Source: Tubulanus polymorphus
Lineage: Eukaryota; Animalia; Nemertea
DNA length: 64,000 nucleotides
Direction: 5' to 3'
NCBI RefSeq assembly: GCF_964204645.1
Contig: NC_134027.1
Coordinates: forward strand, 7,348,485 to 7,412,484
The position numbers and the translations under genes were made by a program. The notes under the pieces were generated by a model that made no database searches, had not been told where the DNA came from, and saw only the letters and a program-made list of their open reading frames with translations. How positions within the stretch are numbered: position 1 is the first letter of the stretch; each line of letters begins with the position of its first letter. Shown here in pieces: positions 19,914-48,937 of this stretch.

Positions 19914-21303
19914 AACAATTGAAATCTGAAATTTGAAATTATCATCCTTTGAGTATTGAAGGACGTAAATAAATGAATGGAGTAGGCCTAAAGCCTACGC
20001 GCCACCTGCAGGCAAGCAGACCATAGCGGCCGGGTTTATTTAGTAATCTAACCATTGGTGGTCTTTTTTCAATTGGATGTTTAAGAAAACCACTGATTTT
20101 CAAAATTAACCACAGACTACGTTGTTTCACTTATAGAATACAAACTCAACAGGAACAGGATTTTGACTTTGTCTTTGACTTTGTACTAACTTGAATCTTG
20201 ATGATTCAATGTGATCAAATATTAGATTCTGATATACATTTGATGGGATATACTTTGATGGGATAACTATCAGGATTTATCACATAATCGGTTAAGAAGG
20301 AGCGCAGTACATAATACTAATTGAATAATGACAGTCAATTAAATTGAATTGAATTTATTTGGAAGAAGTTAGTTATTAATTATTTCTGTGTGTAGTAATG
20401 AAGTTGTATATTGATGTCTATTTCTACTTCAATTTGAATCAAATGTCTGACTTTTTATTCTAGTCTAACTGGCTTGTACCTGACTGCACTGTAACGACTT
20501 TTTGTCGAGCTAAAAGAGAGATTTGTCGACTTTTCCACGATATTTCTATTATTAAGCGAAATTTATTCAATACAATTCAACAACCCGGAAATTAGTGGCT
20601 GCGTAAAAATAGTTTTCCAGATATTTTCAAATACAAAACGTTTAGCCAAATTTCACCAGAGAAAATGTATTTTTTTTTTTAGTTTACTAGAAAAATAATT
20701 TAGATGATTATATGCACCATTTAATCATGTTACTACAAAGAAAGCGCGCTCCCTATCAATAATCAATGCCACACTGAAATGACAGTAGTGCATTCTGGGA
20801 AATCAAGCGAAATGTAGCATTTCTCATAAATTTCTCTCTTATTTCGCTGCATTTATTCCTCAAATCTCGTTAACAACAATCGATGTAAGCAGTTTTACTA
20901 ACCCTGAAATCAACCATATATGTTGTAGTACATTGTACATTTATGTGGGCCTAATCATCGAATATAATTATTATCTTAACTTTAAAAAAAGCCTCCCCCA
21001 AAAAATAACCCTTCCTTCAACTGAAACTTCCTTGCTTCCTGTTCCTTCTTCCCTGAATCATCATGGACCCCCTGGATCTTCTACACCTCCAGTTTCATTT
21101 TATTGTACAGATAATTTTACATTAGTTATAACCACAATTTGCATCTCAAGGTTTTCTATTCCGTTCCAAAAAGGCAAAAGTCTTGTTGATGTTGTCTATT
21201 TTAATTCATTTCCTCATGGACCATCATGGATTTGTTCGATTCTGCCCCCTCATTCAATTAAAGTTTCTTCGTTTAATCGCATATTACAGGTTTGGCGATA
21301 GAT

Positions 21304-24300
21304 ATGGATAAAATGAGAGCTGATAAAAATATCAAAAAGTTAAAACCGAACGGTGTATGTATCGATAATCATCATTGCCTTCCTGTCGCGCACGGAAACC
21401 AGTTTATATCCAGTATTGAACACCCGCAATCTCGTGTCGAAAATGGAGGTGACTTGTCGATCGGAAATGGGGGTAACGGAACGTTTGACAACACAGAAAC
21501 AAACAAGATTTCATCACACGAGGGACGAGAAACTACCAATACAACCGGTGACATAATTCAGGTATCGAAAAAAGAGCATAGTTTGAATATCCGCTGTGAC
21601 GATCGACAAGATATCCACTCAACAAAACACCAGCGCGATAATGACGCTTTATACTCGAAGGCGCACTGCACTTGTCATCAAAACAATTTCGAATCCGTGT
21701 CTCCGGAGAATTGCACGGCGAAACAAAAGGCCAATAATTTCTTAGGCAAAAACGTTTCCACGAATGGAATGATAGCGACAAGGGATTGCGGCGATGACAT
21801 GGATAATTATATTACTGCCAACGCGCATCTTTTAGTGCACTTAAACGAGGATGACGGCCGCCACGAAGGAGGGGGTGATTCGGAATCGACGCAGATTAAA
21901 GTTATGAACGGTATTTCGTCGCTGTCACATTCGCCGACCGAGTCGAATATGATAACAGGCGCGTCGCAACTCGATCGCCGCGTGGCGTCGGCTTTAACGT
22001 CGTGTTCGTCGGACGAAGACTTCTACGAGTACAATTATCAATACAAAGACAGCAGCGACCACAGCACAAACGATTCCGCACCAGTCTTTCAAAGTATCAA
22101 TACCAACGGAATCATTCATAATAACATCAGCGTTGATAGTTACCGTGGCGGTAACGGTGAGATTCATGTTTACGACGATCAAGGTGACTTTATTGAAACG
22201 GATTTCGTTAATAGGGAAAACTATGGTTTGAATTCGACGGACGAACGAGATTCATCCGATGAAGACGTGAACAATTCGCAGCACGTTATCGCCAACATGT
22301 ACGATACGGTCAACGTCTCGCGTAAAGGTCACGACGGCTGCAATTTGGACACGAAAACGTTAACGGTCGCGAAGGATTCCGTGAAAAAGGTGCTACACAC
22401 CACGACGCGCGGTAATATCGTCGACGAAGTCGCCGTATTCTCGTCGAAATCATGTCGAAATAACCGCGAGTGGATGAACCATCTCAGCGACGCGTCGATT
22501 GAAGATAACGACGAGGAGGACGACGACGATAACGAAAATTTAATCGACGGCTCGAATTCGCCCGATACGAACTCGAAAACTTTGACGTTATCCGGCGGAA
22601 ATATGCGCACGAGCGTTTCGCACACGTCGGACAGTAGTATGGATACATGCGCGTTAACACCGGAATCGTTATCGCTGTGGTCGCCGGACGTCGAGTATCC
22701 CGAACTAAATTCGATCGAAAGCGGCGTTTCCGAGTCGTGTTCACGTGGTAAAGATTACTGCGATGTTCATAAAGACGGCGGCAGCAGCATTCGCGAGGAT
22801 GAACGAAATCTCGTCGAAAGCATCGATATCTGTTTGTGTCCGACAGAGCAGTCTTTTAATATTCCAAATATACCGAATAATCTGAACGAAGTTTCGTCCA
22901 GCGACCAGTCGTCGGAAGACGATCTTTACAACGTGTCGAGGCAGACGTCAACTTCGAATTTCGATAACGATGAGAACAGTTACCAAGGCGACGATCACAG
23001 TAATACAGACAATGAGGATCGTTTGTACGATGATGCATTTATCGCGTCAGTTTTCGGACGGGAAGTTTACTCGCAGGAATTCCATCAGAAGCTACGCATT
23101 GATGTGACATCTCATGGTCGATACGTGCGTCTGCTAGACTATAACCCTTCGGCTTCAGATGATGATGACGACAGTTCTGATCGGTAAGTGTTTAATTTGA
23201 TTTCACCTATGAAGATAGTTTCGTAAAGATCTTTTATTGAATATCGAGTTTTGTAGCCAATTTTTAGACAATTTTTGCATTGCAAGCTAGGCTATATGTT
23301 AGGTAGATTCTATTATGGGAAAGCAGTAGTTTACTTCCAGAATATATCGGAAGGGAGATTCTGAGATTGTTATGCATTATGCTATCTATTTACTGCAGAG
23401 AAGCATCTGAACCAATATTTGTTGATGCATCCGATGAACCGTTAAGCAGTGACTTGAGTCCTGAACAGGAACAGCCTCAGTATGATATCAGTAATACAGA
23501 ACAGCGTGATGAAAATATTGCCAAGGTTCAAATGATTTTCTCATATTCATGTTAATTACATTCTAGCTTCGTCTGTGTCCAAATCCCAATGTAAAATGTT
23601 TTGTTGCTTTTTTTCAGACGGATGAAGGTAAATGTCACCATCAAAAACACCGCAAAGTTCCTTCAATCCAAAAAGTAATGGTATGGAGTGAATATGAAGC
23701 ATATATCAGTCAAGTTAAACAAATAGGTCGCTCAGCATGTGGTCCTACTGCTGTTATTAATATATTGGTGAGTTTTTTAAATGAAATCATTCTTCTTTGA
23801 CAATTCTATAACAGCATAGTAAAAATGTGATTTCATGTTTGTAAATAGAACTTCGAAATCCCACTGGTGCATTGAGGCACTGATAGTATAATTTGCTGCC
23901 TTTCAAATTCTGCTGATTTTGTTGCAAATCAAAAGATGATTGATTTCTTTTACAGAAAGCCTTTGATATTTTCTGTGATAAAGAGAAAGTGAACTATGTG
24001 ATAAAAGCAAACCTAAGGGCAGAAAAGGCATCGGTGCCAGAATATCTGCTATCGAGAAGTGTGGCTGGTAAGTCCTTATGCTGAAAATTAAAAGTTATCT
24101 TTTATGCTTGGAAATTATAAGTCTCATACCAGACTTGTGGAGTCAGTCACTATTCTCTAAATTCTTAGTTTGGTATTTGATCAGAGTTGTTTCAAAAGAC
24201 AAAAGAGTTTTGCTTAGCATCAAAATATAAGGAAAAGTTCATGTCAGAAGAGTTCTTAAGTTAACAATAGTTGATTTGTTAACATTTGTAGGGACAACAG

Positions 24301-26604: not shown

Positions 26605-26823
26605 GGCTAAACAAAAATGATACCTTGTTTCTCCGCAGCGGCCGGGTCATTTTGTAAAATATGATAAAATTTGTAAACAGTTCATTTCTATAGCGGCCGG
26701 GTCTGTTATGGTAAAATTGATCACGATTTTAAAAAAAGTAATGTATAGGGTAGATAGGCGGCCGGCCGGGTCAACATTTAAGCTCAGCAGAGCGGAGAAA
26801 CAAGGTATCAATTTTTTTAAGCC
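26605..26823. mobile_element. PIF/Harbinger-type MITE
   Basis: TTA|ggctaaacaaaaatgataccttgtttctccgc ... gcggagaaacaaggtatcaatttttttaagcc|TTA; three internal ggccgggtc units. Confidence 0.85.
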
Positions 26824-27563
26824 TTAGAGTCTATTGTAAGATCATCAATATGAGGAATATTGTCTGTAGAATAGTGCATTGAATAGCTTTATTTTTGTCT
26901 GCTTCCTTTGCCAATACATGTATGTTTTATGTGTGCAGAATATTGAAGATGTAAAAATTGTATTTTCCCTCCCTTAAAGCTGTCAAATGAAATTTTTATT
27001 AATAAAATGTTAATTCAGTGTCTGAATCCATGATTCTGTGTTATATAGCAATTATTTGAAGTCTGATTTTTCCTGCTCTTCATAGCAGATGAGTAGGACT
27101 TCCTTTGTTTCAGATGCAACTAAACTGCCTTGTATCCAAACATTCCCAAATTTCCTACATTTGAAAACATTTTCTTTGTTACTTGTTTTTCAATAAGGGT
27201 TTCTCTTAGAGCAGACGAGTAAAACTTAAATGCCACTGCTCTCTAGATGCAAACATTTCCGCCCCGCCCCCGAGAACAAATTTGCTCTATTCAACTCTTA
27301 TTTAATAATAATCACATTCTTTATAACGCCATATTTTTCTTCATCAGTCCTAACAGTGGCATTTTACACTTTCCAAAATTTCCTTCATTATTCGATGAAA
27401 AAATTCACAGGATTTTAAAGTTACAAACAACCATAAAGCAATGGGTCTGCGGCGTGGACTTCAATTTGAGACAGAAATTTGAAAAATATACCAATTCAAT
27501 GAACAATCAATTTATTAATTACACTATGTACTGCAACGTATATATAAAATCGTATAGCTCATA

Positions 27564-28211
27564 TTACGTAGAGTTATCATTATTTTCAATTTGTTTTTTA
27601 TATTTTTCGATGATCGGCTCCATTTTGAAATTTTCTAAACTCGGAGACAGTCTTTTATACTCCTCAGGTGCATATCTCTTCAAAGTTTCTATTGGGTTTG
27701 GCCACTCCTCAGGTCGATAGTTTGGTCCGCTGCATTTTCGACCGGTCAGGGGGTCGGTATAGTCCCCTGTGCTGTAGACTTTTTCCTTGACCTCATGGAG
27801 AACATCTTTTCTGACTTCTTCAGATAGTTGTTTTATCAACACTAGGTCACCGATGTTGCATATCTGTTTTGTATCCATTGCCAGTAGATGACACCTTTCG
27901 TTAAAGTACTGAAATGTAAAAATAGGTTATAAACTCAAATAGAACAGATCGATCGTGTGAACTGAAACAGTACAGTACCCGTCAGTAGTAGTACACAGTA
28001 GAAAACATCATCAATTTCTTGCAAATCAAAAAGATCAATTATGTACCTTTTTCAAGTAGTCATCCAGCACCATTTTCAATGCCCTTATTTTCACTGTTTT
28101 TCTGTCTTTGCCCCCATACTCTAAAACTTTTCCTATCAAAAGTTTTGTTTGCGCTTTCGGTAAATCGACACATTTCACAGCGCTCCAAACAATTTTCTTT
28201 CGGGCCGACAT
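27564..28211 (-). CDS. MRPS17: Mitochondrial ribosomal protein uS17m, 2 exons (28047-28211, 27564-27908)
   Basis: LIGKVL...KTVKIRALKMVLDDYLKK|YFNERCHLLAMDTKQICNIGDLVLIKQL...HEVKEKVYSTGDYTDPLTGRKC. Confidence 0.93.
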
Positions 28212-28888
28212 CTTTTTAGATAACACGATGAACCGTCAGGTGCTGCCGCTATGTTTGTCGTTGACGACGAATACTAACCATTACTTGCATCCCACAGTAA
28301 GAATAGTAAGCATATCATGGGGCAGCACGCGACGGTAGAAAATCTGACACTCGCGGTGTGCTGGATCCCGCAGTTTTCACGAATAAGTTCACCTCAAATT
28401 GTTGGTGTAATTTCCATTGATTACTTCATGTTTTCAATGAGGATAACAATTCAAACCTAACTGATTTAAGCTTAAACTTTTTCATGAAACCGGACCATGG
28501 ACCTGAGCGAAAAAGATTTTGCAATGAACCTTAGTGATGAACCAGTGCACTGTTACCATAAAATGGCCATAGAAATCATCTGCTAGAAATCCCTGACTAA
28601 GATAGAATAGTTTTGACTGAGAGTTGATTTTGCAAGCCTTGCCCCAGACAAACGGTTCGGCTATCGCGTAAGACCAATTGAATTATATAATGATATAAAT
28701 ATATAATGACCGTTATATGTACCCGAAGCCATTAATGTTCGATAGAATATTGGAATTTGGACTTAACTTTCGTCAAATGAAACGATAGTACATCATGGAT
28801 CTTCCATATATCAATTATTTCCTGTGGTATAACATTGATTGGGAACTTTACGGTATTATAGATGATAGACGGCAGTTCATCATCTGAG

Positions 28889-29924
28889 ATGATGATGCTG
28901 CAAATGTGCCAATTTATATTGGTATTCAGGTTATTTGTAGTAAGTGAACAATTAAGTGGAAATTTTGTGAGAAGAGTGATAAATGCAAATCCGGTACCGT
29001 TCAAGACGATCGAAAATCAACGCTCTAAAATACGTTGTGCTTCTTATTGTTCAAACGAAAGACATATTTGTCGGTCGTTTTCACTATCTAATCAAACCTC
29101 GTCGGGTTTACTTCAATGCCAGCTCTATGATCATGTACCATCAGATTTGGGCGAACAACCAGTAGAGTTATTTATTCACAGTAGTTTAAACAGTAAGTTG
29201 GTTTTTTCAAAGAAGATTGATTGTAGATTTTCCGGTGAATTTACAGATATTGTCTATCAAGTCACATTCTTTGTTATTTGCTCTGAATTTCTTCAAACAT
29301 TTTCCAGGCTGTTCCCATTTGCGCGTCGGTTGGAATGGATCAGAAATAAGTAATACGAAGTATCTTAAGCACGATTCTACCTTGCTTGTATTCACAAAGA
29401 AAGCATTTGTATGTTATGGTAAAGTTAAAAGATGGAAATATGACAGAGATAGTACGAATGCCGAAGACGCTCATGTCTCCATATGGCGACCGACAAATGA
29501 TAGCCTGAAATACAAGATTATTGGTTACAACATACTTTCGTCTGGTGAAGCTGGGACATGGGTAGAACAAGTTCCCGAAGCTGATCAGATAGCAGTAGAA
29601 CCAGGCGACGTCATTGGTGTTCATGCAACTGATAATCAGAGTAAAGCATTTCTACTTTACAGGCAATGGAAACCGTTAGTAATACCTATTTTGAGCAAAT
29701 ATTTTTTTATTTTGGATTCTAGGAATGAATCCAGTAGCATCGAACGCATGATTGCCGCATTGTCTTGTTGTAGGTCATATGGTGGCTCCCCATCCCCAGA
29801 GATGTCACCGATTTTGCAGTCTGTTGGAGTCGTATTTGAGAGTGATTTGGTTCTTGGAACAAGTGTAACGTTTAGAAATTCGGGGCACTGGCGTGAATAT
29901 TTATTGATGGCAATGTTGAACTAG
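28889..29924 (+). CDS. Secreted PAN/apple-domain protein, copy 1 (intron 29193-29307)
   Basis: Signal-peptide-like start MMMLQMCQFILVFRLFVVS; CASYC...CRSFS...CQLYD pattern; splice joins in frame to the 29217-29924 ORF (WRP...YKIIG...VEPGDVIG). Confidence 0.7.
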
Positions 29925-29969
29925 AATACAGAAGTAAGAAAAGTACACGTGGTACACGAACTTTTGAAA

Positions 29970-30126
29970 AATAATAATAATAATTTATTTTCGTAAACCG
30001 GTTACGAGGTATCCAGTGCAAGCCAACAGGCTGTACATAAAATTAAGGCGCTGGAACCTTGTGCAGAGTGCAGGGGAATGTGCAGTGATACTTATAAATA
30101 ATGCTATTAATAATCCTAATGCTAAC

Positions 30127-30160
<34 letters not shown>

Positions 30161-30194
30161 CTAACAATAATAATACATGTAATGCTAATCAATG

Positions 30195-30227
<33 letters not shown>

Positions 30228-30357
30228 CAAATTCTAATAATAATGACAACAATAACTTATACAAATACAAATACAATGATAATCATAATTACGGCAATAT
30301 ACTATAACCATTAATATTTCAGTAATTTAGGTAAAGATACTCATAATGATAATAATA

Positions 30358-30394
<37 letters not shown>

Positions 30395-32091
30395 TAATAA
30401 TAATAATAATAATAATAATAATAGTAATAATAATAATAATAATGATTGATTAATAATAATAATAATAATAATCATAATAATAATGATTGATTACAAATAT
30501 GGAGAAAGCAAATGCCACAGATAATAATGATTACAAAGATAGATAGTCTAGTATAGCAGTCTAGTCAAGTTTAGTTAAGACTAAACACATACCAAGTTTT
30601 TCCTCAACGGGAGATGAATAATTACGCGTATTTCAGTAATATTTGTTTTTTAAATTGGAATGATAGTGAATTTATGCTGGTGGATGAACGGATAACATTC
30701 GGAGTATTTCGCCAAATATTAGGCATCTGAGCTAAGAAGGATTTACTGTATAATTTGGATTTATGGAAAGCAGCTCTCGCATAGTTAAACTGTCTGGTAT
30801 TGTGGGAGTGGAAGTTGAAATTATGATGAAATAAATTTAGCAGTGGAGTTGGGAGGGAGTTATGAGTGTATTGAAATCCTAATTTGATAATTTCCAGTTG
30901 AATCAGATCATGGAATTTAAGTATTTTATATTTTTTGAAAATAGGACCTGTTGGGGCGTTGTAAGCTGAGTTTTCGATGAGTCTTAGTGCTTTTTTCTGA
31001 ATAGTAAAGAGACTTTTGGATTGACTAGATGATAACAATGGCCCCCACGCAATAAGTGCATACGTTAGGTGACTTTGGATATAGCTTATATATAACAGTT
31101 TTTTAGTCCAGCAGGGAATGAGATTTCTTAAGCTTCTTAAAAGATATAAATTTTTGTTTAATTTGTTAATTAATTGTTTTACATGAGGTTCCCAATTTAG
31201 ACGATCATCAATTAGCAAACCAAGAAATTTAGTAGAGTTTACTATTTCAAGAGAGTGTTTTCCAAATACTATTTTGTATAATGATTTGTCAATGGTTTTA
31301 TCTTTTGAAAAAAGTAAGTACTTTGTCTTATCTATGTTAAGAGTGAGTTTATTTGAGTTAAACCAGTCAATGATAATATTGAGATCAATTTTAGCATTAT
31401 GCAATAGTAAATTCATATGTTTGTTGGAAATAAGTAAGTTAGTATCATCTGCAAAGGAAACAGCTTTAGTGTAGCAGAGGTTGTGATTAAGATCATTGAC
31501 ATAAATAAGAAAAAGTAAGGGCCCAAGGACCGATCCCTGTGGGACACCAAATGAAACGGTATTATAGGAAGAGTAGGAATTATTGAATTTAACAAATATT
31601 TTACGATTGCATAAATATGATTTGAACCAATTATAGGCATGACCTCGAATACCATAGTGGGATAATTTAAATAATAATTTGTTGATATCGAGGGAGTCAA
31701 AAGCCTTAGATAAGTCCAGAAAGAGGCCAAGGGAGTGATCCCCCTTTTCAAGATTTTGTAGTATAGAGCCTGTAAATTCTGTGATTGCGTGAGTAGTAGA
31801 GTGTTTTGGTCTAAATCCATATTGGCTGTTATTCAGTATGTTATGTTTGCATAGAAATTTATAAAGTCTATTGTGAACAAATTTTTCTAGTATTTTCGAC
31901 ATGACCGGAAGTAAAGATATTGGTCGGTAGTTATTAAGGAGCTGTTTGTTTCCATTTTTATATAGAGGAATTACCTGAGAAATTTTCATACTATCTGGAA
32001 ATATACCATCCTGAAGGGATTTATTGCAGAGAATTGTCAGAGGATCGATAATATTGGATATAATTAGTTTAAGCATTCTATTATTCAGTAA
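29970..32091 (-). mobile_element. 5'-truncated duplicate of the LINE: RT ORF 30622-32076 (484 aa) plus 3' UTR and tail
   Basis: Translation identical to the C-terminal part of 34811-37558; NYRPISLLP, QYGFR, FLDLSKAFD, GVPQGSVLGPLLF, FADDT. Confidence 0.95.
30125..30490. repeat. Compound (AAT)n microsatellite in the LINE 3' UTR, copy 1
   Basis: Visible AAT arrays. Confidence 0.95.
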
Positions 32092-32100
32092 TACTCAGTA

Positions 32101-32403
32101 CTGAAATGTAAAAATAGGTTATAAACTCAAATAGAACAGATCGATCGTGTGAACTGAAACAGTACAGTACCCGTCAGTAGTAGTACACAGTAGAAAACAT
32201 CATCAATTTCTTGCAAATCAAAAAGATCAATTATGTACCTTTTTCAAGTAGTCATCCAGCACCATTTTCAATGCCCTTATTTTCACTGTTTTTCTGTCTT
32301 TGCCCCCATACTCTAAAACTTTTCCTATCAAAAGTTTTGTTTGCGCTTTCGGTAAATCGACACATTTCACAGCGCTCCAAACAATTTTCTTTCGGGCCGA
32401 CAT
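32101..32403 (-). pseudogene. MRPS17: Partial MRPS17 duplicate (promoter, exon 1 32239-32403, intron 32101-32238) spliced onto LINE sequence
   Basis: Copy of 27909-28211; only 4 nt of exon 2 are retained before the duplication junction. Confidence 0.9.
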
Positions 32404-33080
32404 CTTTTTAGATAACACGATGAACCGTCAGGTGCTGCCGCTATGTTTGTCGTTGACGACGAATACTAACCATTACTTGCATCCCACAGTAAGAATAGTA
32501 AGCATATCATGGGGCAGCACGCGACGGTAGAAAATCTGACACTCGCGGTGTGCTGGATCCCGCAGTTTTCACGAATAAGTTCACCTCAAATTGTTGGTGT
32601 AATTTCCATTGATTACTTCATGTTTTCAATGAGGATAACAATTCAAACCTAACTGATTTAAGCTTAAACTTTTTCATGAAACCGGACCATGGACCTGAGC
32701 GAAAAAGATTTTGCAATGAACCTTAGTGATGAACCAGTGCACTGTTACCATAAAATGGCCATAGAAATCATCTGCTAGAAATCCCTGACTAAGATAGAAT
32801 AGTTTTGACTGAGAGTTGATTTTGCAAGCCTTGCCCCAGACAAACGGTTCGGCTATCGCGTAAGACCAATTGAATTATATAATGATATAAATATATAATG
32901 ACCGTTATATGTACCCGAAGCCATTAATGTTCGATAGAATATTGGAATTTGGACTTAACTTTCGTCAAATGAAACGATAGTACATCATGGATCTTCCATA
33001 TATCAATTATTTCCTGTGGTATAACATTGATTGGGAACTTTACGGTATTATAGATGATAGACGGCAGTTCATCATCTGAG

Positions 33081-34116
33081 ATGATGATGCTGCAAATGTG
33101 CCAATTTATATTGGTATTCAGGTTATTTGTAGTAAGTGAACAATTAAGTGGAAATTTTGTGAGAAGAGTGATAAATGCAAATCCGGTACCGTTCAAGACG
33201 ATCGAAAATCAACGCTCTAAAATACGTTGTGCTTCTTATTGTTCAAACGAAAGACATATTTGTCGGTCGTTTTCACTATCTAATCAAACCTCGTCGGGTT
33301 TACTTCAATGCCAGCTCTATGATCATGTACCATCAGATTTGGGCGAACAACCAGTAGAGTTATTTATTCACAGTAGTTTAAACAGTAAGTTGGTTTTTTC
33401 AAAGAAGATTGATTGTAGATTTTCCGGTGAATTTACAGATATTGTCTATCAAGTCACATTCTTTGTTATTTGCTCTGAATTTCTTCAAACATTTTCCAGG
33501 CTGTTCCCATTTGCGCGTCGGTTGGAATGGATCAGAAATAAGTAATACGAAGTATCTTAAGCACGATTCTACCTTGCTTGTATTCACAAAGAAAGCATTT
33601 GTATGTTATGGTAAAGTTAAAAGATGGAAATATGACAGAGATAGTACGAATGCCGAAGACGCTCATGTCTCCATATGGCGACCGACAAATGATAGCCTGA
33701 AATACAAGATTATTGGTTACAACATACTTTCGTCTGGTGAAGCTGGGACATGGGTAGAACAAGTTCCCGAAGCTGATCAGATAGCAGTAGAACCAGGCGA
33801 CGTCATTGGTGTTCATGCAACTGATAATCAGAGTAAAGCATTTCTACTTTACAGGCAATGGAAACCGTTAGTAATACCTATTTTGAGCAAATATTTTTTT
33901 ATTTTGGATTCTAGGAATGAATCCAGTAGCATCGAACGCATGATTGCCGCATTGTCTTGTTGTAGGTCATATGGTGGCTCCCCATCCCCAGAGATGTCAC
34001 CGATTTTGCAGTCTGTTGGAGTCGTATTTGAGAGTGATTTGGTTCTTGGAACAAGTGTAACGTTTAGAAATTCGGGGCACTGGCGTGAATATTTATTGAT
34101 GGCAATGTTGAACTAG
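33081..34116 (+). CDS. Secreted PAN/apple-domain protein, copy 2
   Basis: ORF translations identical to copy 1 at offset 4192. Confidence 0.7.
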
Positions 34117-34161
34117 AATACAGAAGTAAGAAAAGTACACGTGGTACACGAACTTTTGAAA

Positions 34162-34318
34162 AATAATAATAATAATTTATTTTCGTAAACCGGTTACGAG
34201 GTATCCAGTGCAAGCCAACAGGCTGTACATAAAATTAAGGCGCTGGAACCTTGTGCAGAGTGCAGGGGAATGTGCAGTGATACTTATAAATAATGCTATT
34301 AATAATCCTAATGCTAAC

Positions 34319-34352
<34 letters not shown>

Positions 34353-34386
34353 CTAACAATAATAATACATGTAATGCTAATCAATG

Positions 34387-34419
<33 letters not shown>

Positions 34420-34549
34420 CAAATTCTAATAATAATGACAACAATAACTTATACAAATACAAATACAATGATAATCATAATTACGGCAATATACTATAAC
34501 CATTAATATTTCAGTAATTTAGGTAAAGATACTCATAATGATAATAATA

Positions 34550-34580
<31 letters not shown>

Positions 34581-37500
34581 TGATAATAATAATAATAATA
34601 ATAATAATAATAGTAATAATAATAATAATAATGATTGATTAATAATAATAATAATAATAATCATAATAATAATGATTGATTACAAATATGGAGAAAGCAA
34701 ATGCCACAGATAATAATGATTACAAAGATAGATAGTCTAGTATAGCAGTCTAGTCAAGTTTAGTTAAGACTAAACACATACCAAGTTTTTCCTCAACGGG
34801 AGATGAATAATTACGCGTATTTCAGTAATATTTGTTTTTTAAATTGGAATGATAGTGAATTTATGCTGGTGGATGAACGGATAACATTCGGAGTATTTCG
34901 CCAAATATTAGGCATCTGAGCTAAGAAGGATTTACTGTATAATTTGGATTTATGGAAAGCAGCTCTCGCATAGTTAAACTGTCTGGTATTGTGGGAGTGG
35001 AAGTTGAAATTATGATGAAATAAATTTAGCAGTGGAGTTGGGAGGGAGTTATGAGTGTATTGAAATCCTAATTTGATAATTTCCAGTTGAATCAGATCAT
35101 GGAATTTAAGTATTTTATATTTTTTGAAAATAGGACCTGTTGGGGCGTTGTAAGCTGAGTTTTCGATGAGTCTTAGTGCTTTTTTCTGAATAGTAAAGAG
35201 ACTTTTGGATTGACTAGATGATAACAATGGCCCCCACGCAATAAGTGCATACGTTAGGTGACTTTGGATATAGCTTATATATAACAGTTTTTTAGTCCAG
35301 CAGGGAATGAGATTTCTTAAGCTTCTTAAAAGATATAAATTTTTGTTTAATTTGTTAATTAATTGTTTTACATGAGGTTCCCAATTTAGACGATCATCAA
35401 TTAGCAAACCAAGAAATTTAGTAGAGTTTACTATTTCAAGAGAGTGTTTTCCAAATACTATTTTGTATAATGATTTGTCAATGGTTTTATCTTTTGAAAA
35501 AAGTAAGTACTTTGTCTTATCTATGTTAAGAGTGAGTTTATTTGAGTTAAACCAGTCAATGATAATATTGAGATCAATTTTAGCATTATGCAATAGTAAA
35601 TTCATATGTTTGTTGGAAATAAGTAAGTTAGTATCATCTGCAAAGGAAACAGCTTTAGTGTAGCAGAGGTTGTGATTAAGATCATTGACATAAATAAGAA
35701 AAAGTAAGGGCCCAAGGACCGATCCCTGTGGGACACCAAATGAAACGGTATTATAGGAAGAGTAGGAATTATTGAATTTAACAAATATTTTACGATTGCA
35801 TAAATATGATTTGAACCAATTATAGGCATGACCTCGAATACCATAGTGGGATAATTTAAATAATAATTTGTTGATATCGAGGGAGTCAAAAGCCTTAGAT
35901 AAGTCCAGAAAGAGGCCAAGGGAGTGATCCCCCTTTTCAAGATTTTGTAGTATAGAGCCTGTAAATTCTGTGATTGCGTGAGTAGTAGAGTGTTTTGGTC
36001 TAAATCCATATTGGCTGTTATTCAGTATGTTATGTTTGCATAGAAATTTATAAAGTCTATTGTGAACAAATTTTTCTAGTATTTTCGACATGACCGGAAG
36101 TAAAGATATTGGTCGGTAGTTATTAAGGAGCTGTTTGTTTCCATTTTTATATAGAGGAATTACCTGAGAAATTTTCATACTATCTGGAAATATACCATCC
36201 TGAAGGGATTTATTGCAGAGAATTGTCAGAGGATCGATAATATTGGATATAATTAGTTTAAGCATTCTATTATTCAGTAAGTCATTACCACCAGTGGTCT
36301 TTTTTGGGGCTAGGTTGTTGATAATCCTCAAGATTTCCTCCTTGTTGGTTGGATTTAAAAAGATTGAGTGGGCATTCCTTGCCCCCATGTAAGTTGTAAA
36401 ATTGTTTTTAGAACTTGGACATTTGTTTGCATAAGAGCTACCAATCGAAGAAAAGAAGTTACAAAATTGTTGGCTTATTGATTTAGGTTCCTCAACAAGT
36501 TTATTATCGATGATGAATTTATTAGGGATCCCCGATCTGTCATTTAATTTACCTGTGGATTGCTTCAAAAATTGCCATAATTTGCGACTATTATTGGAAA
36601 ATAATACAATTTTGTTTGCATAGTACGATTTCTTTTGACGCCTTTTAATGTAATTTAAATTATTTCTGTAAAGAATATAGTTTTTATAACGTTGGTCAGA
36701 TTTGTCCAGATTCAATACTTTTTTATAAAGATGATCGCATTTCTTAGAGCATTTTAAAATTGATTTAGACATCCATGGTTCGTAAATATGAACTTTCTTC
36801 TTAACTTCTATTAGTGGGGATACGTTATTTATGATTAAATTTATATGCGACATAATGAAATCGTAACAACCATTACAATCGAGCAGGTTGACAGGAGTCC
36901 AGTCTAGTTGTGAAAGCATACGATTTATCCTATCGATATTCTGGGTATTAAAATTCCGAGTATAATGTTTACTGGTTGTTGAAGGTTTTCGTTTATAACG
37001 CACGGTCACGAGGCATGGTAAATGATCAGACAGGTGTGAAATCAGGATAGCACTTTGATGATCAGAACTCAGCGCCGGAGAGAGATATATATTGTCAATT
37101 AACGTGGCTGTCGCGTGTGTTATTCTAGTTGGCCGTAAAATAGTTGGAAAAAGATTATTTGATAAATTGATATCCAAAAATTTGGAAGTGTTTTTATGAT
37201 GATTAATGTTAATATAATCTAGATTTTGGTCCATTCCTAATATCATTTCGCACTTTTCATTCTTAATTTTGCGTATTAAATTTTCGTATTCGGAAAGAAA
37301 TTCAATTTCACTAGTTCCTGGGACACGGTAGAGTTCGCCAATGATTGTCCTTTTACTAGATTGAAAAGCCATATCAATTTCAATAAAACAAGATTCAAAT
37401 TTACCTTCAATGAACACTTCTAGATCCGGTCTCTTATTATAGGTTAAGTTATTACTTATATAAATTGCTACTCCTCCACGCTGTTTCAAAACTCTGTGAT

Positions 37501-38700
37501 TCTCTATTAATTGATAACCAGGAATTTTGCATAACATTGAATTGTAGTCAGTCAACATAGCATAATGATGTCAATGGTAACATTTTGGGATTTAAGTTTT
37601 TCAATCAATATTTTGAGTTGGTCAAATTTGTTGTTAAGACTATGTATGTTAAGTTGAATTATATTAAGGTTATTCGTATTCATACTGAAATGGTTTTTTA
37701 ACTCGTGCAATTCGAGGTACGGGCATTGATTACTGAACATTTCCAATTCACTATCATTATCTAATAAATTGTTGAGATGAAAATTTTCATTTTCCTTTAA
37801 TCTGTCTAAATACGTGAAAAAGTTTGTGTTACCGAGACACATGTTTAATTAATTTATACCACGGTCAAAAAAGGATTATGAATCAGGGAAAAGAATAAAG
37901 AATAATTATAAAATAAATAAATAAATATAAATATAAATACAATTCCAGAACTCGGATGTATGAGTATAGGTCAGAAATGCATGACTGCTTTATGGACATG
38001 GTTTACAAGGTACACAATATATTGATCTACGACTGAATGGCCTACTCAGTGGTTTATATAGATACACGCTTTTCGGAATAGTTCATCGTAAAGATCATAA
38101 AGACACTACAGTTTACTCGCTCGTTGATTGTATTGTTTTCTCGAAGTCCGCATAACCACATAAATGAATTTTGATGTCATCGATGATGGCCCATACCTTC
38201 CCATCGAGTGACCACACTGCCGATACTTTTTCGTGTTTGTAGAGAAATTTAACAAAGTCAGCTCTCGGTTTGGTCAGGTCTTCGGATATAGAAATTTTCG
38301 TACTTTTTAGTTTGCGTCGATTTTTTAGAATGTTCACTTTATCTAAGTGTCGAACGAATTTGACAATCATCGGTCTCGGCTTCCGGGGGTCTCTGGATTT
38401 TCTTCCGACGCGATGAATCCGATCTATTTGAAGAGGTTCGACTATTATATCTAGTTTTGTTTTGAATAGATTAATGCATTTCGATAGGCAATCCTCATTG
38501 TCTTCTTCTGTCAAATTGAAGATTCTTACCGAGTTGCGCCGAGTATACATCTCGAGTTCCTCTGTTGCTGAGTTTGATTCGATGATGCAGTTATCGTATT
38601 CGGACACAGTTTTTAATAGCATAATGTTTTGGAAAATGCAGTTTTTCCTATATACTGCGCGATTTACAAAAAGCTGTGTCTTAAAGAAAACACTAAAGCT
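34162..38700 (-). mobile_element. Near full-length non-LTR retrotransposon of the CR1/L2 group (ORF1 38113-38622; ORF2 34811-37842, frameshifted at ~37555); 5' end approximate
   Basis: ORF1 has an L1/CR1-type RRM (RRNSVRIFNL, IDRIHRVG, PRPMIVKF, ISEDLT). ORF2 has APE (QLNIHSL, GGVAIY, TLIDNIY, SDHLP) and RT (FADDT). The 3' end is AATAAA followed by (TTA)n. Confidence 0.95.
34317..34680. repeat. Compound (AAT)n microsatellite in the LINE 3' UTR, copy 2
   Basis: Visible AAT arrays; one unit shorter than copy 1. Confidence 0.95.
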
Positions 38701-39205: not shown

Positions 39206-40110
39206 CTACAAGTGAATAAACCTTGAGCTGTCACTCTGAAATTTTCGTTGACTAACGTAATATAATAGAAAGTTGATACACGAGTTGAGAACTGATGTAA
39301 TGTTGTACGCTGTATTGGATGCCTCTACTCGTTTTCCAATTATATATTCGCTCATTTTTGAAACAGAACCCGGGATTTCAAATATCAAAAATATACGATG
39401 CTCATTGTGGGTTACCATTTTCGTTGCTTTCGATTCGGTAAGTTTTGAGACTTGCTGATTTGTCATGTATTTACGTTTCTGCAATTTCACGTACAAACAA
39501 CCAACAGAAGAATATTTGCTAGGAAAACCAGAAACGTGGGTATGATGATTCCTCGTAGTAACGGGTCGAACATAAAGTTAAACATTCGAAATATCTTTCG
39601 ATGAGAGCTTGATCTGAAGATAGTTTCTTCTTGAACGCATAAATACCCCTGAAAAGTGTAAATGGTAAGTGTCGCGGAGTAATACAAAAAAACTTTAGAA
39701 AAATAAAGCGAGGAAAAATATCACAATTTTAAGGCGCACTTTCGTCATCATTATTGCAGCCTTTAACGGTACTATGATGGTAACGAGTCGGTTTACTGTC
39801 AAGACGGTTAACCAGTTTCTTAACAACAAAAAAGCTTTGTAAAAAATAACCGAGCCGATGTACACTTTTGGGTCAACATTCTAGGGTCCATATCTGTCCA
39901 CAGCAGCGCTGCCAATTCGAGCTGACAGTAGAAAATACCTAAGTGGTTCCAAAATGAACTGTATTACCAAGAATAAGTTATCGATAGCGGCCAACAGAGT
40001 GTCAGTAGAAACGCGGAACGATGGTCGTATTTCAAACGCACAAACACGATGATTACTAATGAATTAAACGTGATTCCAAATAAAATAAACGGAGGTAAAC
40101 ATGTAAGCAT
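39206..40110 (-). pseudogene. Frameshifted intronless class A peptide-GPCR pseudogene
   Basis: Fragments in different frames: ILFGITFNSLVIIVF (TM1), AAIDNLFL (TM2), NWLTV..VNRLVTIIVPL (TM3), IIPTFLVFLANILL (TM5), KATKMV..IFEIP (TM6), LNSCINFLLYY (TM7). Confidence 0.8.
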
Positions 40111-40879: not shown

Positions 40880-43800
40880 CTATTTTTCACGAGACGCGAT
40901 TTTCTTTGACACGTCACTTCTACATCGCCGTCTGCAGATGATAGAAATGGCGGCAATAAACATAACGATCAACGCAATGCCACACACTATCAACATGATC
41001 CAATTATCATCGTCGGTGATAGCTGGAAATCAAATATACATTAAGAGACGTATTTTCGCAGAAACGTAATCTGTAATTTCTGCATTCGTTGTATGTATAC
41101 CGCTATTTACATGAATGCAAATTAGATGAACATACTTCGAGTATATGAACACAAATCTCATCAGATTCACCCACCTTTCACTTGAAATTGATTGTCCGAG
41201 TGAACGATGACGTCACCATCGAAAATATCAAAACGGTAATTATAAGTAGAGTTACTGTCGACAGGAATTCGTACGTAATTGATAGACGTGGTGAAATTAA
41301 ACGATTGACAAAGTGATCTGTTGAATTTGGGACAGAGCTTGAAATTGACGACGTAATTTTTCGTTCTTAATCCTGGCAATTCCACTATGACGCTGTCGAC
41401 TAATTGAGAAACTTTGACTCGTTTAATCCATCGCAGTAATCCATTGATACCTGGGAATAATACCAGATTGTGTATACAGCGACAAATTTGTGTGACGTTT
41501 AGACAATCAATCTAAACCATCTAAAGCGTATTCACCTTTCGTTTTAACCCTTACTGATTTTAGAGGAGAACTTATTTCTGGACTTGACTTTAAGTTGAAT
41601 CCTCTAATTCTGAATTCGTATCGTGTATCAGGTTTTAGATCAGTTACTCGGGTACTCGGATAACTGATATTAGCTGGAATTGTCTTTTGTGACCATCCCG
41701 AACCTGATCTGGCTTTCCTGTATTCAACGATGTAAAATTCGTCCGTGACATTTGGATTTGACGACCATGACATTGAAATTGATGTTGCTGTTACAGTTGA
41801 GATCATCAAATCGCTTACGCGGTGTCGAGCTCCTTAAAAATAGAATACGTAATTGTGTATATGTGCTATAAAACTACTGATAATGAAAGCAGTGCTTGAC
41901 GAAAATATAGTGTCATTCCAGGAAATTTCCATGCAAAGCCTGTACTTATGGTAACAAGAATTATATAAATAAGGGTGCACATTATTTGGGATTGGGTAAA
42001 AAATCACTTAACGTGGCGCGTCTTTCAGGTGGGAAGGGATTTATTTCATTCGTGGCAAATGCACGATTTTACAATGCATAGATATATATTACAGTTTTTT
42101 AACGACTCATCAAAAAGCGCTTACCTGGTCGTAACAGTTTAATTTTGAAGTCCGTAAATCCGACTGTATTATGTATTAAGCATGTGTATGTGCCATAATC
42201 ACTTGGAGTTACATCTCTCACCCGAATCAACCACGTATTGTTTACGTTTTTCAGTACGAATCGACAGGATTTTACGAGATCATTTAGATCTCTATCGTCT
42301 GCCGTACAGAGTAAATGCGTTCGCGAATACTCCTTGTTGTATTCCAGGTATTTGACGTTGACTTTCGTGTTGTATTCAACTTTGAATTTCACATTTCCAC
42401 CCTCGTTAACGACTCTTTTCAATGTGGAATTTTCGTGTTTGATAACTGGTGGAACTACGTGCGAGAAAATTATAAATGTACCTGTATCGGAAAATCTATC
42501 ATATAATTCTTAATTAAAAACATGATGGATTAAATACCTGCGCATAGGTTTAAATACGCCCCTTGAGGCGAAATGCAGTATACGCGGACGTTTATACGTC
42601 GAATGACCGTCCCTGCAACATTTTTCTTCTCACACGAATAGCGAGCATCGTGCAAACCATTGACGTTTGCGATGACGATATCTTTCGTTCCTCCTAACAT
42701 TTTTGAGCGCTGTCTCTTTGATCCCTGTATTCTTTTATCTACATGGAAACATGGTGTACTGATAGTATCTTTCATTGTACTATATTAAGACATGGGGCCG
42801 GTTGCTCAAAGGTTGGTTAGAGCTACGAGCAATTATCTAAACTCTAATAGGTTAGAGTTAACCGGTGGATAGAATATAATGACAATCAAAAACTAATAAA
42901 GAAGTTTCCAGTTTCTAGGCGCCATTTTGTGGCGGTCCCTCGAGGTCCATATTGTTGCGATAATTTGCGCTCATTTTTAAAACATAAGTTTATATTGAAT
43001 ATCATATAGTGCTGCAGTCCCTCGCTCGACGAAATCGATTTATACACCATTTTAAAGGAAATTAAATGCAGATATTTGCTGGCGATTCTTGGAATTTTTG
43101 AACTCAACAATTGAGAACAGTGAAGATGTGAAACCAAGGACCGCATATCTTAACCGTGCGTAAAAGAAATCGCAATATTTATTAATTTTAAAATATCTAA
43201 GTATCTCTTAAAGCTATATTTCCAATTTTCACAGAGGTTAAAGAGGGTTATTTGCAGTTTAAGCCTGCGTTGAATTTTTTTGAATATCTTTCCTGACGAC
43301 TGATCTGTACCCGCTTGAGTTTGAGATTACGCGCAAAAGGGGTCTCCCACTGCGCACCGCCATTTCACTGAACATTGAGATTTGTGAAAAGAAATCGCAA
43401 AAATTAGATTTTATACTGGTTTGTAATTATCAATATTGCTTCTGATGGTTATATACTACCTTTATTTTCGTATGGTTGAAAATGGACTTTGAGTGCTTTG
43501 ATGAATTCGAGTTTTGTAGCGTTGGGAAATTAAAGGATTTCTTGTAAGAGTGGGGACTTTCTGTGTTGGTTGCAAATATGGCCTAGTTGAGAACCTAATT
43601 TGCGTTTCAACCGAATGTACCACTCATGGTTGGACACTAGAAAAAAAATCTAAGTTTTTATATATTTTTGAATATGCGGCGCAGCTGAAAGTTGCCAAAC
43701 TGGACGTTGACCCCCTAAAACAGAATATCAAATGGGGGACAGATATGAACCCCTTTAAATATTATATTGGAATTTTATATCAGTAAGGTTTTCTGGTCGA

Positions 43801-46119
43801 TGTTTTCCAGCAAGAAGGTTGAGATTCATTAAATGAATTCATCGTATGATCCCAGAATGAGGGATTACCAGAGAGAGATATGTGTTAAATATGTCCTAAG
43901 CGTTTAAATTGACTGGCACATTTCACCATCGACTCTAAAACGTTTGATTTCACCGAACACAAAATCGGCGCTAGGCTGGATGGGCTGTATACGACAATTC
44001 CTCAACTGGGCCGTTCACACTTCAATAGCGGGACAAACCGGATCCCGAAACCAGATTAACGAATTGCCCCCGCCAAAATACGGTACAAACAAGATATGTA
44101 TTATCATCTCAAAATATCCCCATGGAAAATGTGAAGAAATCAAATTGCATTTTAAAATTTCTTGTCGCAAATCTCAATGTTCAGTGAAATTACAATGCGC
44201 AGTGGGAGACCCCTTTTGCGCGTAATCTCAAACTCAAGCGGGTACAGATCAGTCGTCAGGTAAGATATTCAAAAGATTTTAACGCAGGCTTAAACTGCAA
44301 ATAACCCTCTTTAAACTCAGTGAAAATAGGAAATATAGCTTGAAGCGATACTTAGATATTTTGAAATTAATAAATATTGCGATTTCTTTTACGCACGGTT
44401 TAGATATGCGGTCCTTGGTTTCACATCGTCACTGTTCTCAATTGTTGAGTTCAAAAATTCCAAGAATCGCCAGCAAATATCTGCATTTAATTTTCTTTAA
44501 AATGGTGTATAAATCGATTTCGTCGAGCGAGGGACTGCAGAACTATATGATATTCAATCTAAACTTATGTTTTAAAAATGAGCGCAAATTATCGCAACAA
44601 TGGGGACCTCGCGGGACCGCCACAAAATGGCGCCTAGAAACTGGAAACTTCTTTCTTGTTACCATGATCGTATTTATCCACCAATTCCCTTAACCAACTC
44701 TGGAGCAACTGGCCCTTGATTGTAAACAAATTCAATCGAATTGCATATGATTTCATATTCATTCTTTATTTGAAGAGTTTGTTTTCATCAACATTACCTT
44801 TCCACCATCTGTATGAAACCGGTTGAGTAACTCCATAACCGTCCCCATCACATCTTAAAACTAAACGCGTTCCCTGTTCGACGTGTATGTTCCTTGTATC
44901 ATCAGCGCTACCCATAAACGATCTGTGGATTTTCGGCTCATAATCAATTTCTGAGCCTGACGGGCCAACTGACGGAAAAAGAAGGTATTCAGATTCTTGC
45001 GTTTTCACGATATTATAATAACCAAATTAGCTGGTGGTCACAGGATTGTTTTGTTGGAGATGTAAATAATTTTTCTCATATTACTTATATTACAGTAATA
45101 TGACAAAAGTGCTAAGCTTTTTCCCCCTATATTGAGCCTCAGGTGATATCAAATGTACTTTTGAATTTCCTTTATATATCATATTCTTTAAACCTTTATG
45201 TATTTTTCTACCTATTTGTCTGAATTATGAATCAGGACCTACCGGTTACATTAAGTAGTTTTTTTTCAGTGAATACGGTGTTATTGTATTTGCACATCCA
45301 GTAACCAGCGTGGAGTGTGCTGGTACTTTTTATCATTATACCGTACATATTCTGATAAAACCACCGACAATGTTCGTATATATCACTGTTTGCGTAGTGT
45401 CCAACCTCGCGACCCTGCAGCAGTTCATATACAAACAACATGAAAAATGAAAAAATCCAAACCGGACATGCGTTCATTCACTTATAATGATGAATAAACT
45501 TGATGATGTTGAAATTTCTGATGAAGAGGTTTAGTTAAAACATCGAAAAGCTCGACGACCAAATCATCAATTGTAGCGGTTTTAAATTATACTATGTCCC
45601 CGAGACCATCAAATCCACTGTAGTTGTTTTGAAAGAAAAAATAACAAGATCCGTAAATCGAGATATTTTTTCGCCATACAACCGAATACTTCCTGTATTT
45701 CCTTATCTAGCGCAAAACTATAGAGACCAAAATTAAACTTACGTTACAGTTAAATTTCGTAAGTTTCAATTCGCGCAGCACTTTACGATCGTAGTTCATG
45801 TGGACAACCATGATCGGTTCATCACAGAAATCTTCCGAATATGCTACGTTACATTTCAGATACACAGTTCGCCCAAATATGACTGGATTCGGCTCGATAT
45901 CTATTGACAACTCCGAAAAAGGCTTCGTGCAATGTCCATCTTCACAGGTTACTGAACCTACGTACAATACAAATCTTCCATTACGTAAATAAGTACCCCA
46001 TATATAGACGCCAGGTCGTGCATTTTTCGATATCGGACGATTCGATATACATAACGTTTGAAATTCAAATTACCTATCAGGAACAGTATTCCTAACCATG
46101 CCAATTGAACAATCGCCAT
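40880..46119 (-). CDS. Type-I membrane Ig-superfamily protein (about 3 Ig + 1-2 FN3, TM, ~20-aa basic tail), 9 exons
   Basis: Signal exon 46074-46119 (MAIVQLAWLGILFLI); VYLKC..HAGYWMC, LVLRC..DARYSC, DYGTYTC; FN3 with ISMSW, YIVEYR, LKPDTRYEFRIRGFN; TM WIMLIVCGIALIVMFIAAISIIC-RRR; TAG 40880-40882. Confidence 0.85.
42795..44715. mobile_element. Outer palindromic MITE interrupted by a larger foldback element
   Basis: gggccggttgctcaaaggttggttag ... taaccaactctggagcaactggccc termini flank the inner element. Confidence 0.7.
42898..44654. mobile_element. Non-autonomous DNA transposon with ~500-bp terminal inverted repeats, in an intron of the Ig/FN3 gene
   Basis: aaagaagtttccagtttctaggcgccattttg ... 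caaaatggcgcctagaaactggaaacttcttt; near-identical ORF translations on opposite strands (42886-43146 vs 44340-44693); no transposase recognised. Confidence 0.92.
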
Positions 46120-48744: not shown

Positions 48745-48937
48745 AATATTGCACATGTTGTTTTTTCGTCTTCTCATGTATCATGTATCGCATGATGTTT
48801 TTCCCCAGTCGAATCAAGTTTTCTCACTATCTAATCAGTTCATTATTTGAAAATTATTTGGCAGGAAACCCATAGTCGGCCATAGAAGGCCCACAGAGCC
48901 AGTGGTGAATATTGCTGTTATATAATAACGATACGTT
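48745..48937 (+). repeat. Dispersed repeat, copy 2 of 11400-11661
   Basis: Same conserved blocks in the same order, with internal deletions. Confidence 0.75.

What the first reader, a model, noticed from the sequence alone, without database searches (positions are those of the whole stretch)
30622..32403. Nascent chimeric gene: MRPS17 promoter/exon 1 spliced in frame, across one TGA, to an intact endonuclease-less reverse transcriptase
Seen: on the minus strand the duplicated MRPS17 exon 1 (ATG 32403, 55 codons, phase-0 donor) keeps its whole intron and acceptor (32101-32102). The new exon 2 reads TAC TGA GTA TTA CTG AAT AAT AGA ATG CTT (Y * V L L N N R M L), which is the LINE ORF2 frame, open for 484 aa with all RT motifs and the LINE's own AATAAA. 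Knowledge: MRPS17 is a housekeeping mitochondrial protein, and LINE RT normally needs its APE domain and own promoter. Inference: a constitutive promoter may now make a spliced mRNA that yields a stand-alone RT by reinitiation at ATG 32076, or a potentially mitochondria-directed uS17m-RT fusion by readthrough or one substitution. In-frame joining has a 1-in-3 chance, so function is unproven.
Basis: partly seen in the sequence, partly recalled or inferred. Interest (0 to 1): 0.85.

Follow-up and report, generated by a model that had tools for sequence, protein, structure and literature searches.

The report
Fresh duplication joins gene to LINE
A near-perfect 4.2-kb tandem duplication has put the first exon of a mitochondrial ribosomal protein gene in front of the cut-off back half of a broken retrotransposon, and because the join carries a stop codon, the reverse transcriptase lacks a conserved front part and no hybrid RNA was seen, this is most likely an ordinary young rearrangement rather than a working new gene.

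Summary
The anatomy is as described, but it is the junction of a 4,187-bp tandem duplication: 27905-32091 = 32097-36280, 0 substitutions, one 3-nt microsatellite indel, a 5-nt insert between. The insert supplies two letters of the TGA. The RT is not intact. Motifs 1-7 are kept, but the cut falls right after motif 0 (RT0 loop), present in 71 of 72 full-length relatives and within the range where stand-alone group II intron, DGR and DRT RTs align. The parent LINE lacks its ORF1 N-terminus and is frameshifted in its endonuclease. In 3 contig runs no contig bridges the junction. The one spliced run joins exon 1 to native MRPS17 exon 2 (depth 320) and shows no chimeric joint. Contigs cannot prove absence, raw reads were not decisive, and one depth ratio leans towards a heterozygous duplication. 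Reinitiation after 56 codons is feasible in mammals (PMC6614817). Verdict: a very young, probably private duplication (or library chimera) of the class known from Drosophila; a functional RT gene is unlikely (about 4%). Three look-ups of earlier scan notes found nothing like it.

The parts
27905..32091 (.). Tandem duplication, copy A (from 4 nt into MRPS17 exon 2 through intron, exon 1, promoter, plus-strand gene, to the 3' half of the LINE)
   Evidence: self-BLAST 4187 columns, 0 mismatches, 1 gap; gap is 3 nt in the ATT microsatellite
32097..36280 (.). Tandem duplication, copy B
32092..32096 (-). 5-nt insert at the junction; its first two letters complete the TGA at 32097-32095; the retained ends on either side share a 7-nt inverted match
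32239..32403 (-). Duplicated MRPS17 exon 1, 55 codons, phase-0 GT donor
   Evidence: weak uS17m match
32101..32238 (-). Duplicated 138-nt MRPS17 intron with acceptor AG at 32102-32101
32097..32100 (-). The only 4 nt of MRPS17 exon 2 kept in the chimera
30622..32076 (-). 484-codon LINE ORF2 fragment: RT motifs 1-7, thumb and C-terminal helices; no endonuclease, no N-terminal extension, no motif 0
29970..30621 (-). LINE 3' UTR with ATT microsatellite, AATAAA at 29989-29984 and (TTA)n tail
28047..28211 (-). Native MRPS17 exon 1
27564..27908 (-). Native MRPS17 exon 2; the exon 1 to exon 2 splice is seen in run X4 at contig depth 320
34811..37842 (-). Parent LINE ORF2 (APE + RT), frameshifted at about 37560 where relatives have the CETF motif of the endonuclease
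36281..36301 (-). Motif 0 (RT0 loop) of the parent ORF2, ending on the last base before the breakpoint; absent from the chimera
38116..38580 (-). Parent ORF1 remnant; relatives match only from their residue 86-104 on, so the N-terminal part is missing (5' truncation inferred)
33054..34116 (+). Head-to-head neighbour gene (two overlapping open frames, Cys-rich, hydrophobic N-terminus), duplicated whole; other copy 28862-29924
   Evidence: no Pfam match at curated cut-off; X4 contigs at depth 14-21

Best explanation
A 4,187-bp tandem duplication with no substitutions between its copies joins a copy of MRPS17 exon 1 and its intron to the 3' half of an already broken LINE, and it is likely a very young, private or low-frequency product of break repair whose chimera has no function. 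Shown: breakpoints 4 nt into MRPS17 exon 2 and just after motif 0 of ORF2, a 5-nt insert that completes an in-frame TGA, an intact native MRPS17 downstream, and a whole extra copy of the plus-strand neighbour gene. Inferred: the join was made by microhomology-guided end joining (polymerase-theta type) after the LINE had inserted. Inferred: if the copied promoter fires, the acceptor is used and gives an mRNA with a 56-codon ORF and a 2.1-kb AU-rich tail. Such an mRNA would be rare or decayed, and would yield at most a little reinitiated RT fragment that lacks the RT0 lid and NTE, so it would be unable to prime or jump templates efficiently and may not fold stably.
For: 0 mismatches in 4,184 aligned bases. 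All 7 listed sites where X1's LINE contigs carry another letter are shared by both copies, so they predate the duplication. Breakpoints are non-homologous, with 4 nt direct and 7 nt inverted match; an inverted match of 7 or more occurred in 64 of 20,000 random 12x12-nt pairs (post hoc). Tandem duplications of 1 kb-1 Mb with homology or insertions at the junction depend on polymerase theta in C. elegans (PMC7368036, passages). Such chimeras segregate by the hundreds in Drosophila (PMC4069613, passages). Motif 0 K.S.G.D is present in 71 of 72 full-length relatives and missing here. In the model of parent residues 330-919 (pLDDT 91), group II intron, DGR and DRT RTs align from model residues 68-80 while the chimera starts at 107. 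R2 motif-0 mutants lose over 90% of TPRT and template jumping (PMC4117753, passages). The parent is frameshifted and lacks its ORF1 N-terminus. X4 shows only the native splice, depth 320 against 6.2 for the contig at the 5' end of the RT region and 0 in 31820-31939. Depth in bin 32060-32179 is fully accounted for by non-bridging contigs in X1, X2 and X4.
Against: No read or contig was shown to carry the junction, so its existence in a living animal is unproven. Logan contigs are simplified graphs that can drop minor paths (10.1101/2024.07.30.605881, passages), and sample S2 (X2, X4) may lack the duplication, so the RNA result does not test a carrier. The templated-insert test was not significant (21% of 1,024 possible inserts match the flanks as well). 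Reinitiation after a 57-58-codon ORF was efficient for p53 (PMC6614817). Motif-0 point mutants keep primer extension (PMC4117753, PMC11761039). 109 of 116 highly conserved columns in the kept part are matched, so polymerase activity is not excluded.
Confidence: 0.66

Rival explanations
1. The junction is not in the animal: a chimeric library molecule or mis-assembly wrote the 4.2-kb unit twice.
For: Copies have no substitutions. X1, which matches the window with 0 differences over 552 + 1,532 host bases, has contigs that run on past both breakpoints, the LINE-side one into native LINE sequence. No bridging contig in X1, X2 or X4. X5 raw-read depth in the junction bin is 10.5 against about 19 expected without loss.
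Against: The copies differ by 3 nt in the microsatellite and the join has a 5-nt insert with a 7-nt inverted match between the ends; an overlap assembler needs a molecule holding it (my knowledge). In X1 the contig wholly inside the unit has depth 48.3 and the contig one-third inside has 40.4: ratio 1.20, against 1.00 expected without duplication, 1.29 heterozygous, 1.51 homozygous (the tool warns that depth is no copy number). A short junction path beside a LINE at depth 228 could be pruned from contigs (recalled Minia/SPAdes heuristic).
Confidence: 0.21
2. The duplication is real and persists because it doubles the plus-strand neighbour gene with its shared promoter; the MRPS17-LINE chimera is a passenger.
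For: The neighbour's frames (28862-29924, 33054-34116) lie wholly inside the unit and are covered by X4 contigs.
Against: No population data; no bridging contig in S1 or S2, and the X1 depth ratio argues against a homozygous duplication. The gene's function is unknown.
Confidence: 0.09
3. One reading: the housekeeping promoter makes a stable spliced mRNA that gives an active endonuclease-less RT by reinitiation at ATG 32076, or a uS17m-RT fusion by readthrough, with some cellular effect.
For: Splice signals are identical to the used native ones and the frame is shared. The ATG has A at -3. Reinitiation after about 57 codons and 6-243 nt gaps is reported and can protect mRNA from decay (PMC6614817). 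EN-less L1 RT fragments give residual Alu mobilisation, though the fragment tested keeps the Z domain (PMC4889948). The first 20 residues of exon 1 hold 5 K/R and 1 D.
Against: Motif 0/NTE lost. No chimeric contig in X4. The stop is followed by G, not the leaky UGA-C context (context rule recalled). No divergence, so no time for selection. RT-only open frames of this family are commonplace: 5,020 of 7,984 scored candidates of 266-847 aa at E<=1e-60 (many may be contig ends).
Confidence: 0.04

Closest known systems
Segregating tandem duplications that create chimeric genes or recruit downstream sequence (Drosophila yakuba/simulans, PMC4069613)
   Same: One boundary inside a host gene copies its 5' end onto foreign 3' sequence; young; also carries a whole-gene duplicate.
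   Different: The recruited 3' part is a LINE ORF2 fragment in frame behind one stop; population frequency unknown here.
Polymerase-theta-type tandem duplications (C. elegans brc-1/brd-1, PMC7368036)
   Same: kb-scale head-to-tail copy, non-homologous ends, short homology and a small insert at the join.
   Different: Here the templated origin of the 5-nt insert is not distinguishable from chance; no genetic test.
APE-type LINE of the Jockey/CR1 group (L2/Crack/Daphne-like; PMC4120745, PMC13343379)
   Same: ORF2 of about 1,010 aa with APE + RT, an ORF1 upstream, microsatellite tail, 5' truncation.
   Different: This copy is frameshifted in APE; the duplicated half lacks APE, linker and motif 0. 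The clade name is recalled from the layout, no reference tree was built.
EN-less L1 ORF2p fragments (Delta348 RTCys, PMC4889948) and natural stand-alone non-LTR-type RTs (group II intron, DGR, DRT, G2L4)
   Same: RT core without endonuclease.
   Different: The L1 fragment keeps the Z domain and the natural RTs align over the RT0 region; the 484-aa frame begins after it.

Membership tests
Tandem-duplication chimera / recruited-sequence allele | Head-to-tail near-identical copies with one boundary inside a host gene | tested here: met
Tandem-duplication chimera / recruited-sequence allele | Junction present in reads of a living individual | tested here: inconclusive
   no bridging contig in 3 of 3 contig runs; the raw-read run is another sample and its junction reads were not listed; X1 depth ratio 1.20
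Expressed chimeric gene | Spliced transcript joining exon 1 to the LINE | tested here: inconclusive
   absent from X4 contigs, which show the native splice at depth 320; carrier status of that sample unknown
Expressed chimeric gene | Continuous fusion reading frame | tested here: not met
   in-frame TGA at 32097-32095
Expressed chimeric gene | Translation past the stop (readthrough or reinitiation) | not testable with these tools
   needs Ribo-seq or proteomics
Complete non-LTR-type reverse transcriptase | Core motifs 1-7 with Y/FxDD and thumb | tested here: met
   (109 of 116 conserved columns matched)
Complete non-LTR-type reverse transcriptase | N-terminal extension with motif 0 (RT0 loop) | tested here: not met
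   definition in PMC11761039, PMC10830420, PMC10830416
Complete non-LTR-type reverse transcriptase | Polymerase activity | not testable with these tools
   needs an enzyme assay
Domesticated RT gene | Fixed, conserved, under purifying selection | tested here: inconclusive
   0 substitutions between copies leaves nothing to test; 5 of 7 listed copy-specific sites change the amino acid; a homozygous duplication in S1 is disfavoured
APE-type LINE (Jockey/CR1 group) | ORF2 with APE and RT domains, ORF1 upstream | tested here: met
   (parent copy)
APE-type LINE (Jockey/CR1 group) | Clade placement by RT phylogeny | not tested
Autonomous LINE copy | Whole ORF1 and unbroken ORF2 | tested here: not met
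   ORF1 matches only from relatives' residue 86-104; ORF2 splits over two frames at about 37560
Mitochondria-targeted fusion | Targeting signal within exon 1 | not tested
   no predictor available; only charge counts

The most novel reading that the evidence does not exclude
A gene caught at birth: the duplication is real and heterozygous, the MRPS17 housekeeping promoter drives a spliced mRNA in every cell, and reinitiation at ATG 32076 (or readthrough of the single TGA) makes a lid-less, endonuclease-less LINE polymerase, possibly carried to mitochondria by the uS17m N-terminus, that can still extend primers or be complemented by other copies of its family.
Probability: 0.04. Interest if true: 0.75.

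Novelty: new member of a known kind. Interest (0 to 1): 0.2.

Why it matters
As most likely read, it is one more young tandem duplication with a chimeric by-product, useful mainly as a tidy example of how a host promoter and first exon can be set in front of a retroelement enzyme in a single repair event. If a carrier did express an active RT fragment, it would be a starting point of RT domestication that could be watched in a population, and a natural test of whether a LINE RT without its RT0 lid still polymerises.

Tried and rejected
No whole genome was held, so other family copies could not be read directly. Run search: 10 runs listed, 4 holders from one study, no RNA holder on record; X4 is taken as RNA only because its contig is spliced. 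X3 and X6-X10 were never laid; a depth and loose-end test on the native locus (26800-28380) was not obtained, which leaves the raw-read test of the junction and an independent RNA check open. Templated-insert test: not significant. Target-site duplication search for the LINE: only 8-9-nt AT-rich matches, none convincing. Single-sequence fold of the 484-aa frame: pLDDT 36.6, uninformative without an alignment, not used as evidence. X5 raw-read depth (host part 11.9, LINE part 31.9; window letters in 35 of 222 reads at 7 sites) cannot separate one from two copies. ORF1 had no PDB or Pfam match; the Atlas gave no answer. Exon structure of the plus-strand gene was not resolved. Clements and Singer 1998 (Z domain) was not held; I recall it as showing the Z region is needed for L1 RT activity and do not count it. 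10.1101/721357 added nothing. Literature search for MRPS17 with retrotransposon gave 4 papers, none on such a chimera by title or abstract start; one search listed general chimera papers only. Earlier-finding look-ups by place, words and sequence gave nothing relevant. Rejected: domesticated RT gene (no age, no fixation), LINE-mediated transduction (both copies keep the intron and lie head to tail), haplotype false duplication (breakpoints are non-homologous with an insert).

Full report
Observation. On the minus strand exon 1 (32403-32239, 55 codons), the GT donor, the 138-nt intron and the AG at 32102-32101 are identical to the native MRPS17 copy at 28211-27909. The next codons read Y * V L L N N R M in the LINE ORF2 frame, ATG 32076 opens 484 codons, and AATAAA lies at 29989 before a (TTA)n tail. 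Native exon 2 matches uS17m in solved mitoribosomes (E 3.7e-12); exon 1 matches weakly (E 0.048). The 484-aa frame matches Pfam RVT_1.

What made it. Self-comparison shows one tandem unit, 27905-32091 = 32097-36280, 4,187 columns, 0 mismatches and one 3-nt gap in the ATT microsatellite. One boundary lies 4 nt into MRPS17 exon 2, the other inside ORF2 of a LINE that continues to about 38580. Five new letters (32096-32092) sit between the copies, and two of them complete the TGA. The retained ends share 4 nt directly and 7 nt in inverted orientation; 64 of 20,000 random 12x12-nt pairs from the window reached 7 (a post hoc test). Whether the insert is templated could not be told from chance (21% of 1,024 possible inserts). 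kb-scale duplications with homology or insertions at the join depend on polymerase theta in C. elegans (PMC7368036, passages); I infer a repair event of that type. The unit also copies a plus-strand neighbour gene whole. At 7 listed sites all X1 contigs of the LINE family carry another letter (from the 40 of 233 rows shown); both copies share the window letter at all 7, 5 of them amino-acid changing, so the duplication is younger than those differences.

The parent LINE is broken. Against its closest relative (1,013 aa) ORF2 splits into two frames at about 37560, where relatives have the CETF motif of the endonuclease. ORF1 relatives match only from their residue 86-104 onward, which points to 5' truncation. 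The layout (ORF1, APE + RT, microsatellite tail) fits the Jockey/CR1 group (PMC4120745, PMC13343379, passages); no tree was built.

The RT is not intact. Parent residues 424-430 align with KKSPGPDG of L1 ORF2p and end at 36281, the last base before the breakpoint. Among the 72 full-length relatives (990-1,040 aa) of the 120 listed, the K, S, G and D columns are 99-100% conserved and the pattern K.S.G.D is found in 71 of 72; the parent itself has T for S and one extra residue. Of columns conserved at 90% or more, 14 lie in the lost residues 335-435 and 116 in the kept part, of which 109 are matched. A model of parent residues 330-919 (78 sequences, pLDDT 91) matches L1 ORF2p 369-1063 (Z 31.8, rmsd 4.1, 556 aligned) and R2; group II intron, DGR and DRT RTs align from model residues 68-80, while the chimera starts at 107. 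The RT0 loop is the lid over the template in non-LTR RTs (PMC10830420, PMC10830416, passages). R2 motif-0 mutants keep primer extension but fall below 10% in TPRT and template jumping (PMC4117753, passages; also one passage of PMC8857657); in group II-like RTs the loop is needed for microhomology joining but not primer extension (PMC11761039, passages). Against my reading: deleting L1's tower (302-389) leaves RT activity, and the EN-less L1 fragment from residue 348 gives residual Alu mobilisation, though it keeps the Z domain (PMC4889948, passages). So polymerase activity is open, while retrotransposition-type function is unlikely. RT-only frames of this family are common: 5,020 of 7,984 scored candidates; of 51 stored relatives of at most 560 aa, 26 have the motif near the start and 25 do not; many may be contig ends.

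Reads. Ten runs were listed, four holding the stretch, all from one study; four were laid on 30620-34200. X1's contigs match the host part with 0 differences over 552 and 1,532 bases. One X1 contig stops matching at 32091 and runs on into native LINE; another stops at 32097 and runs on for 1,108 letters (not shown; native exon 2 is inferred). In X1, X2 and X4 the depth of bin 32060-32179 is fully explained by such non-bridging contigs (88.6 vs 88.7, 38.2 vs 38.2, 1.65 vs 1.65). X4 holds a 785-nt contig of depth 320 joining 32239 straight to native exon 2, so it is taken as RNA; no joint to 32100 is listed, the contig at the RT 5' end has depth 6.2 and does not join exon 1, and 31820-31939 has none. 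Limits: Logan contigs are simplified graphs (10.1101/2024.07.30.605881, passages) and show presence, not absence; 464 pieces and 187 loose ends were not displayed; the X4 sample may not carry the duplication. The X1 depth ratio of 1.20 lies between no duplication (1.00) and a heterozygous one (1.29) and below a homozygous one (1.51). X5, the only raw-read run, is another sample, and its depths were not decisive. A direct raw-read test of the junction is therefore still open.

Translation if transcribed. The first ORF is 56 codons, the gap to ATG 32076 is 18 nt, the stop is followed by G, and 2.1 kb of 29% GC sequence with 10 ATTTA follow. Classical limits disfavour reinitiation (13-18 codons, 80-90 nt), but the same paper shows efficient reinitiation after 57-58 codons and gaps of 6-243 nt (PMC6614817, abstract and passages). 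Mitochondrial targeting was not tested beyond charge counts.

Comparison and verdict. Tandem duplications that copy a gene's 5' end onto foreign sequence segregate by the hundreds in Drosophila (78 and 38 chimeric genes, 143 and 96 recruitments; PMC4069613, abstract and passages). This locus works like one of those. It fails two tests for a fused, complete RT gene (continuous frame, motif 0). Searches found no report of an MRPS17-LINE chimera. No supplements were read. Best reading: a real, very young, non-functional by-product (0.66); artefact (0.21); kept for the neighbour gene (0.09); functional RT chimera (0.04). Interest 0.2.

Noticed in passing
window 28862-29924 and 33054-34116 (+): Head-to-head neighbour of MRPS17, duplicated whole: hydrophobic N-terminus and a Cys pattern that I recall as PAN/apple-like; no Pfam match. 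An X4 contig runs from it into the LINE tail in antisense. Exon structure unresolved.
   Followed up: partly
window 32585-32690 (and 28393-28498): Short very high-copy repeat in the MRPS17 promoter region: contig depth about 31,000 in X1 against 40-48 around it; MITE-like by inference.
   Followed up: no
run X4, record 17, laid on 30646-31800: A 2,829-nt contig of depth 484 with 97 differences and 13 gaps: a diverged, decayed copy of the same LINE family is abundant in this probable RNA run and would confound RT-region expression assays.
   Followed up: no
window 42895-43395 and 44157-44657: 501-bp inverted repeats, 95% identical, enclosing about 760 bp; possibly a non-autonomous DNA transposon.
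   Followed up: no
window 39209-40100 (-): Frames broken by stops that resemble a rhodopsin-type GPCR; weak match (E 0.003) to the intact GPCR at 47249-48412; probably a pseudogene beside the LINE 5' end.
   Followed up: partly
window 11321-11492 and 48660-48836: Dispersed repeat pair, 77% identical over 183 columns.
   Followed up: no
window 36281-36304 (-): The family's motif 0 has T for the S found in all 72 full-length relatives and one extra residue; the high-depth contigs of X1 and X2 carry the same letters, so it is a family trait.
   Followed up: partly
window 487-23187: Ordinary compact animal genes: Pfam WASH-7_mid, zf_Hakai, GFO/IDH/MocA oxidoreductase, amiloride-sensitive channel, Mat89Bb; a 636-codon acidic frame at 21277-23187 has no Pfam match.
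   Followed up: no
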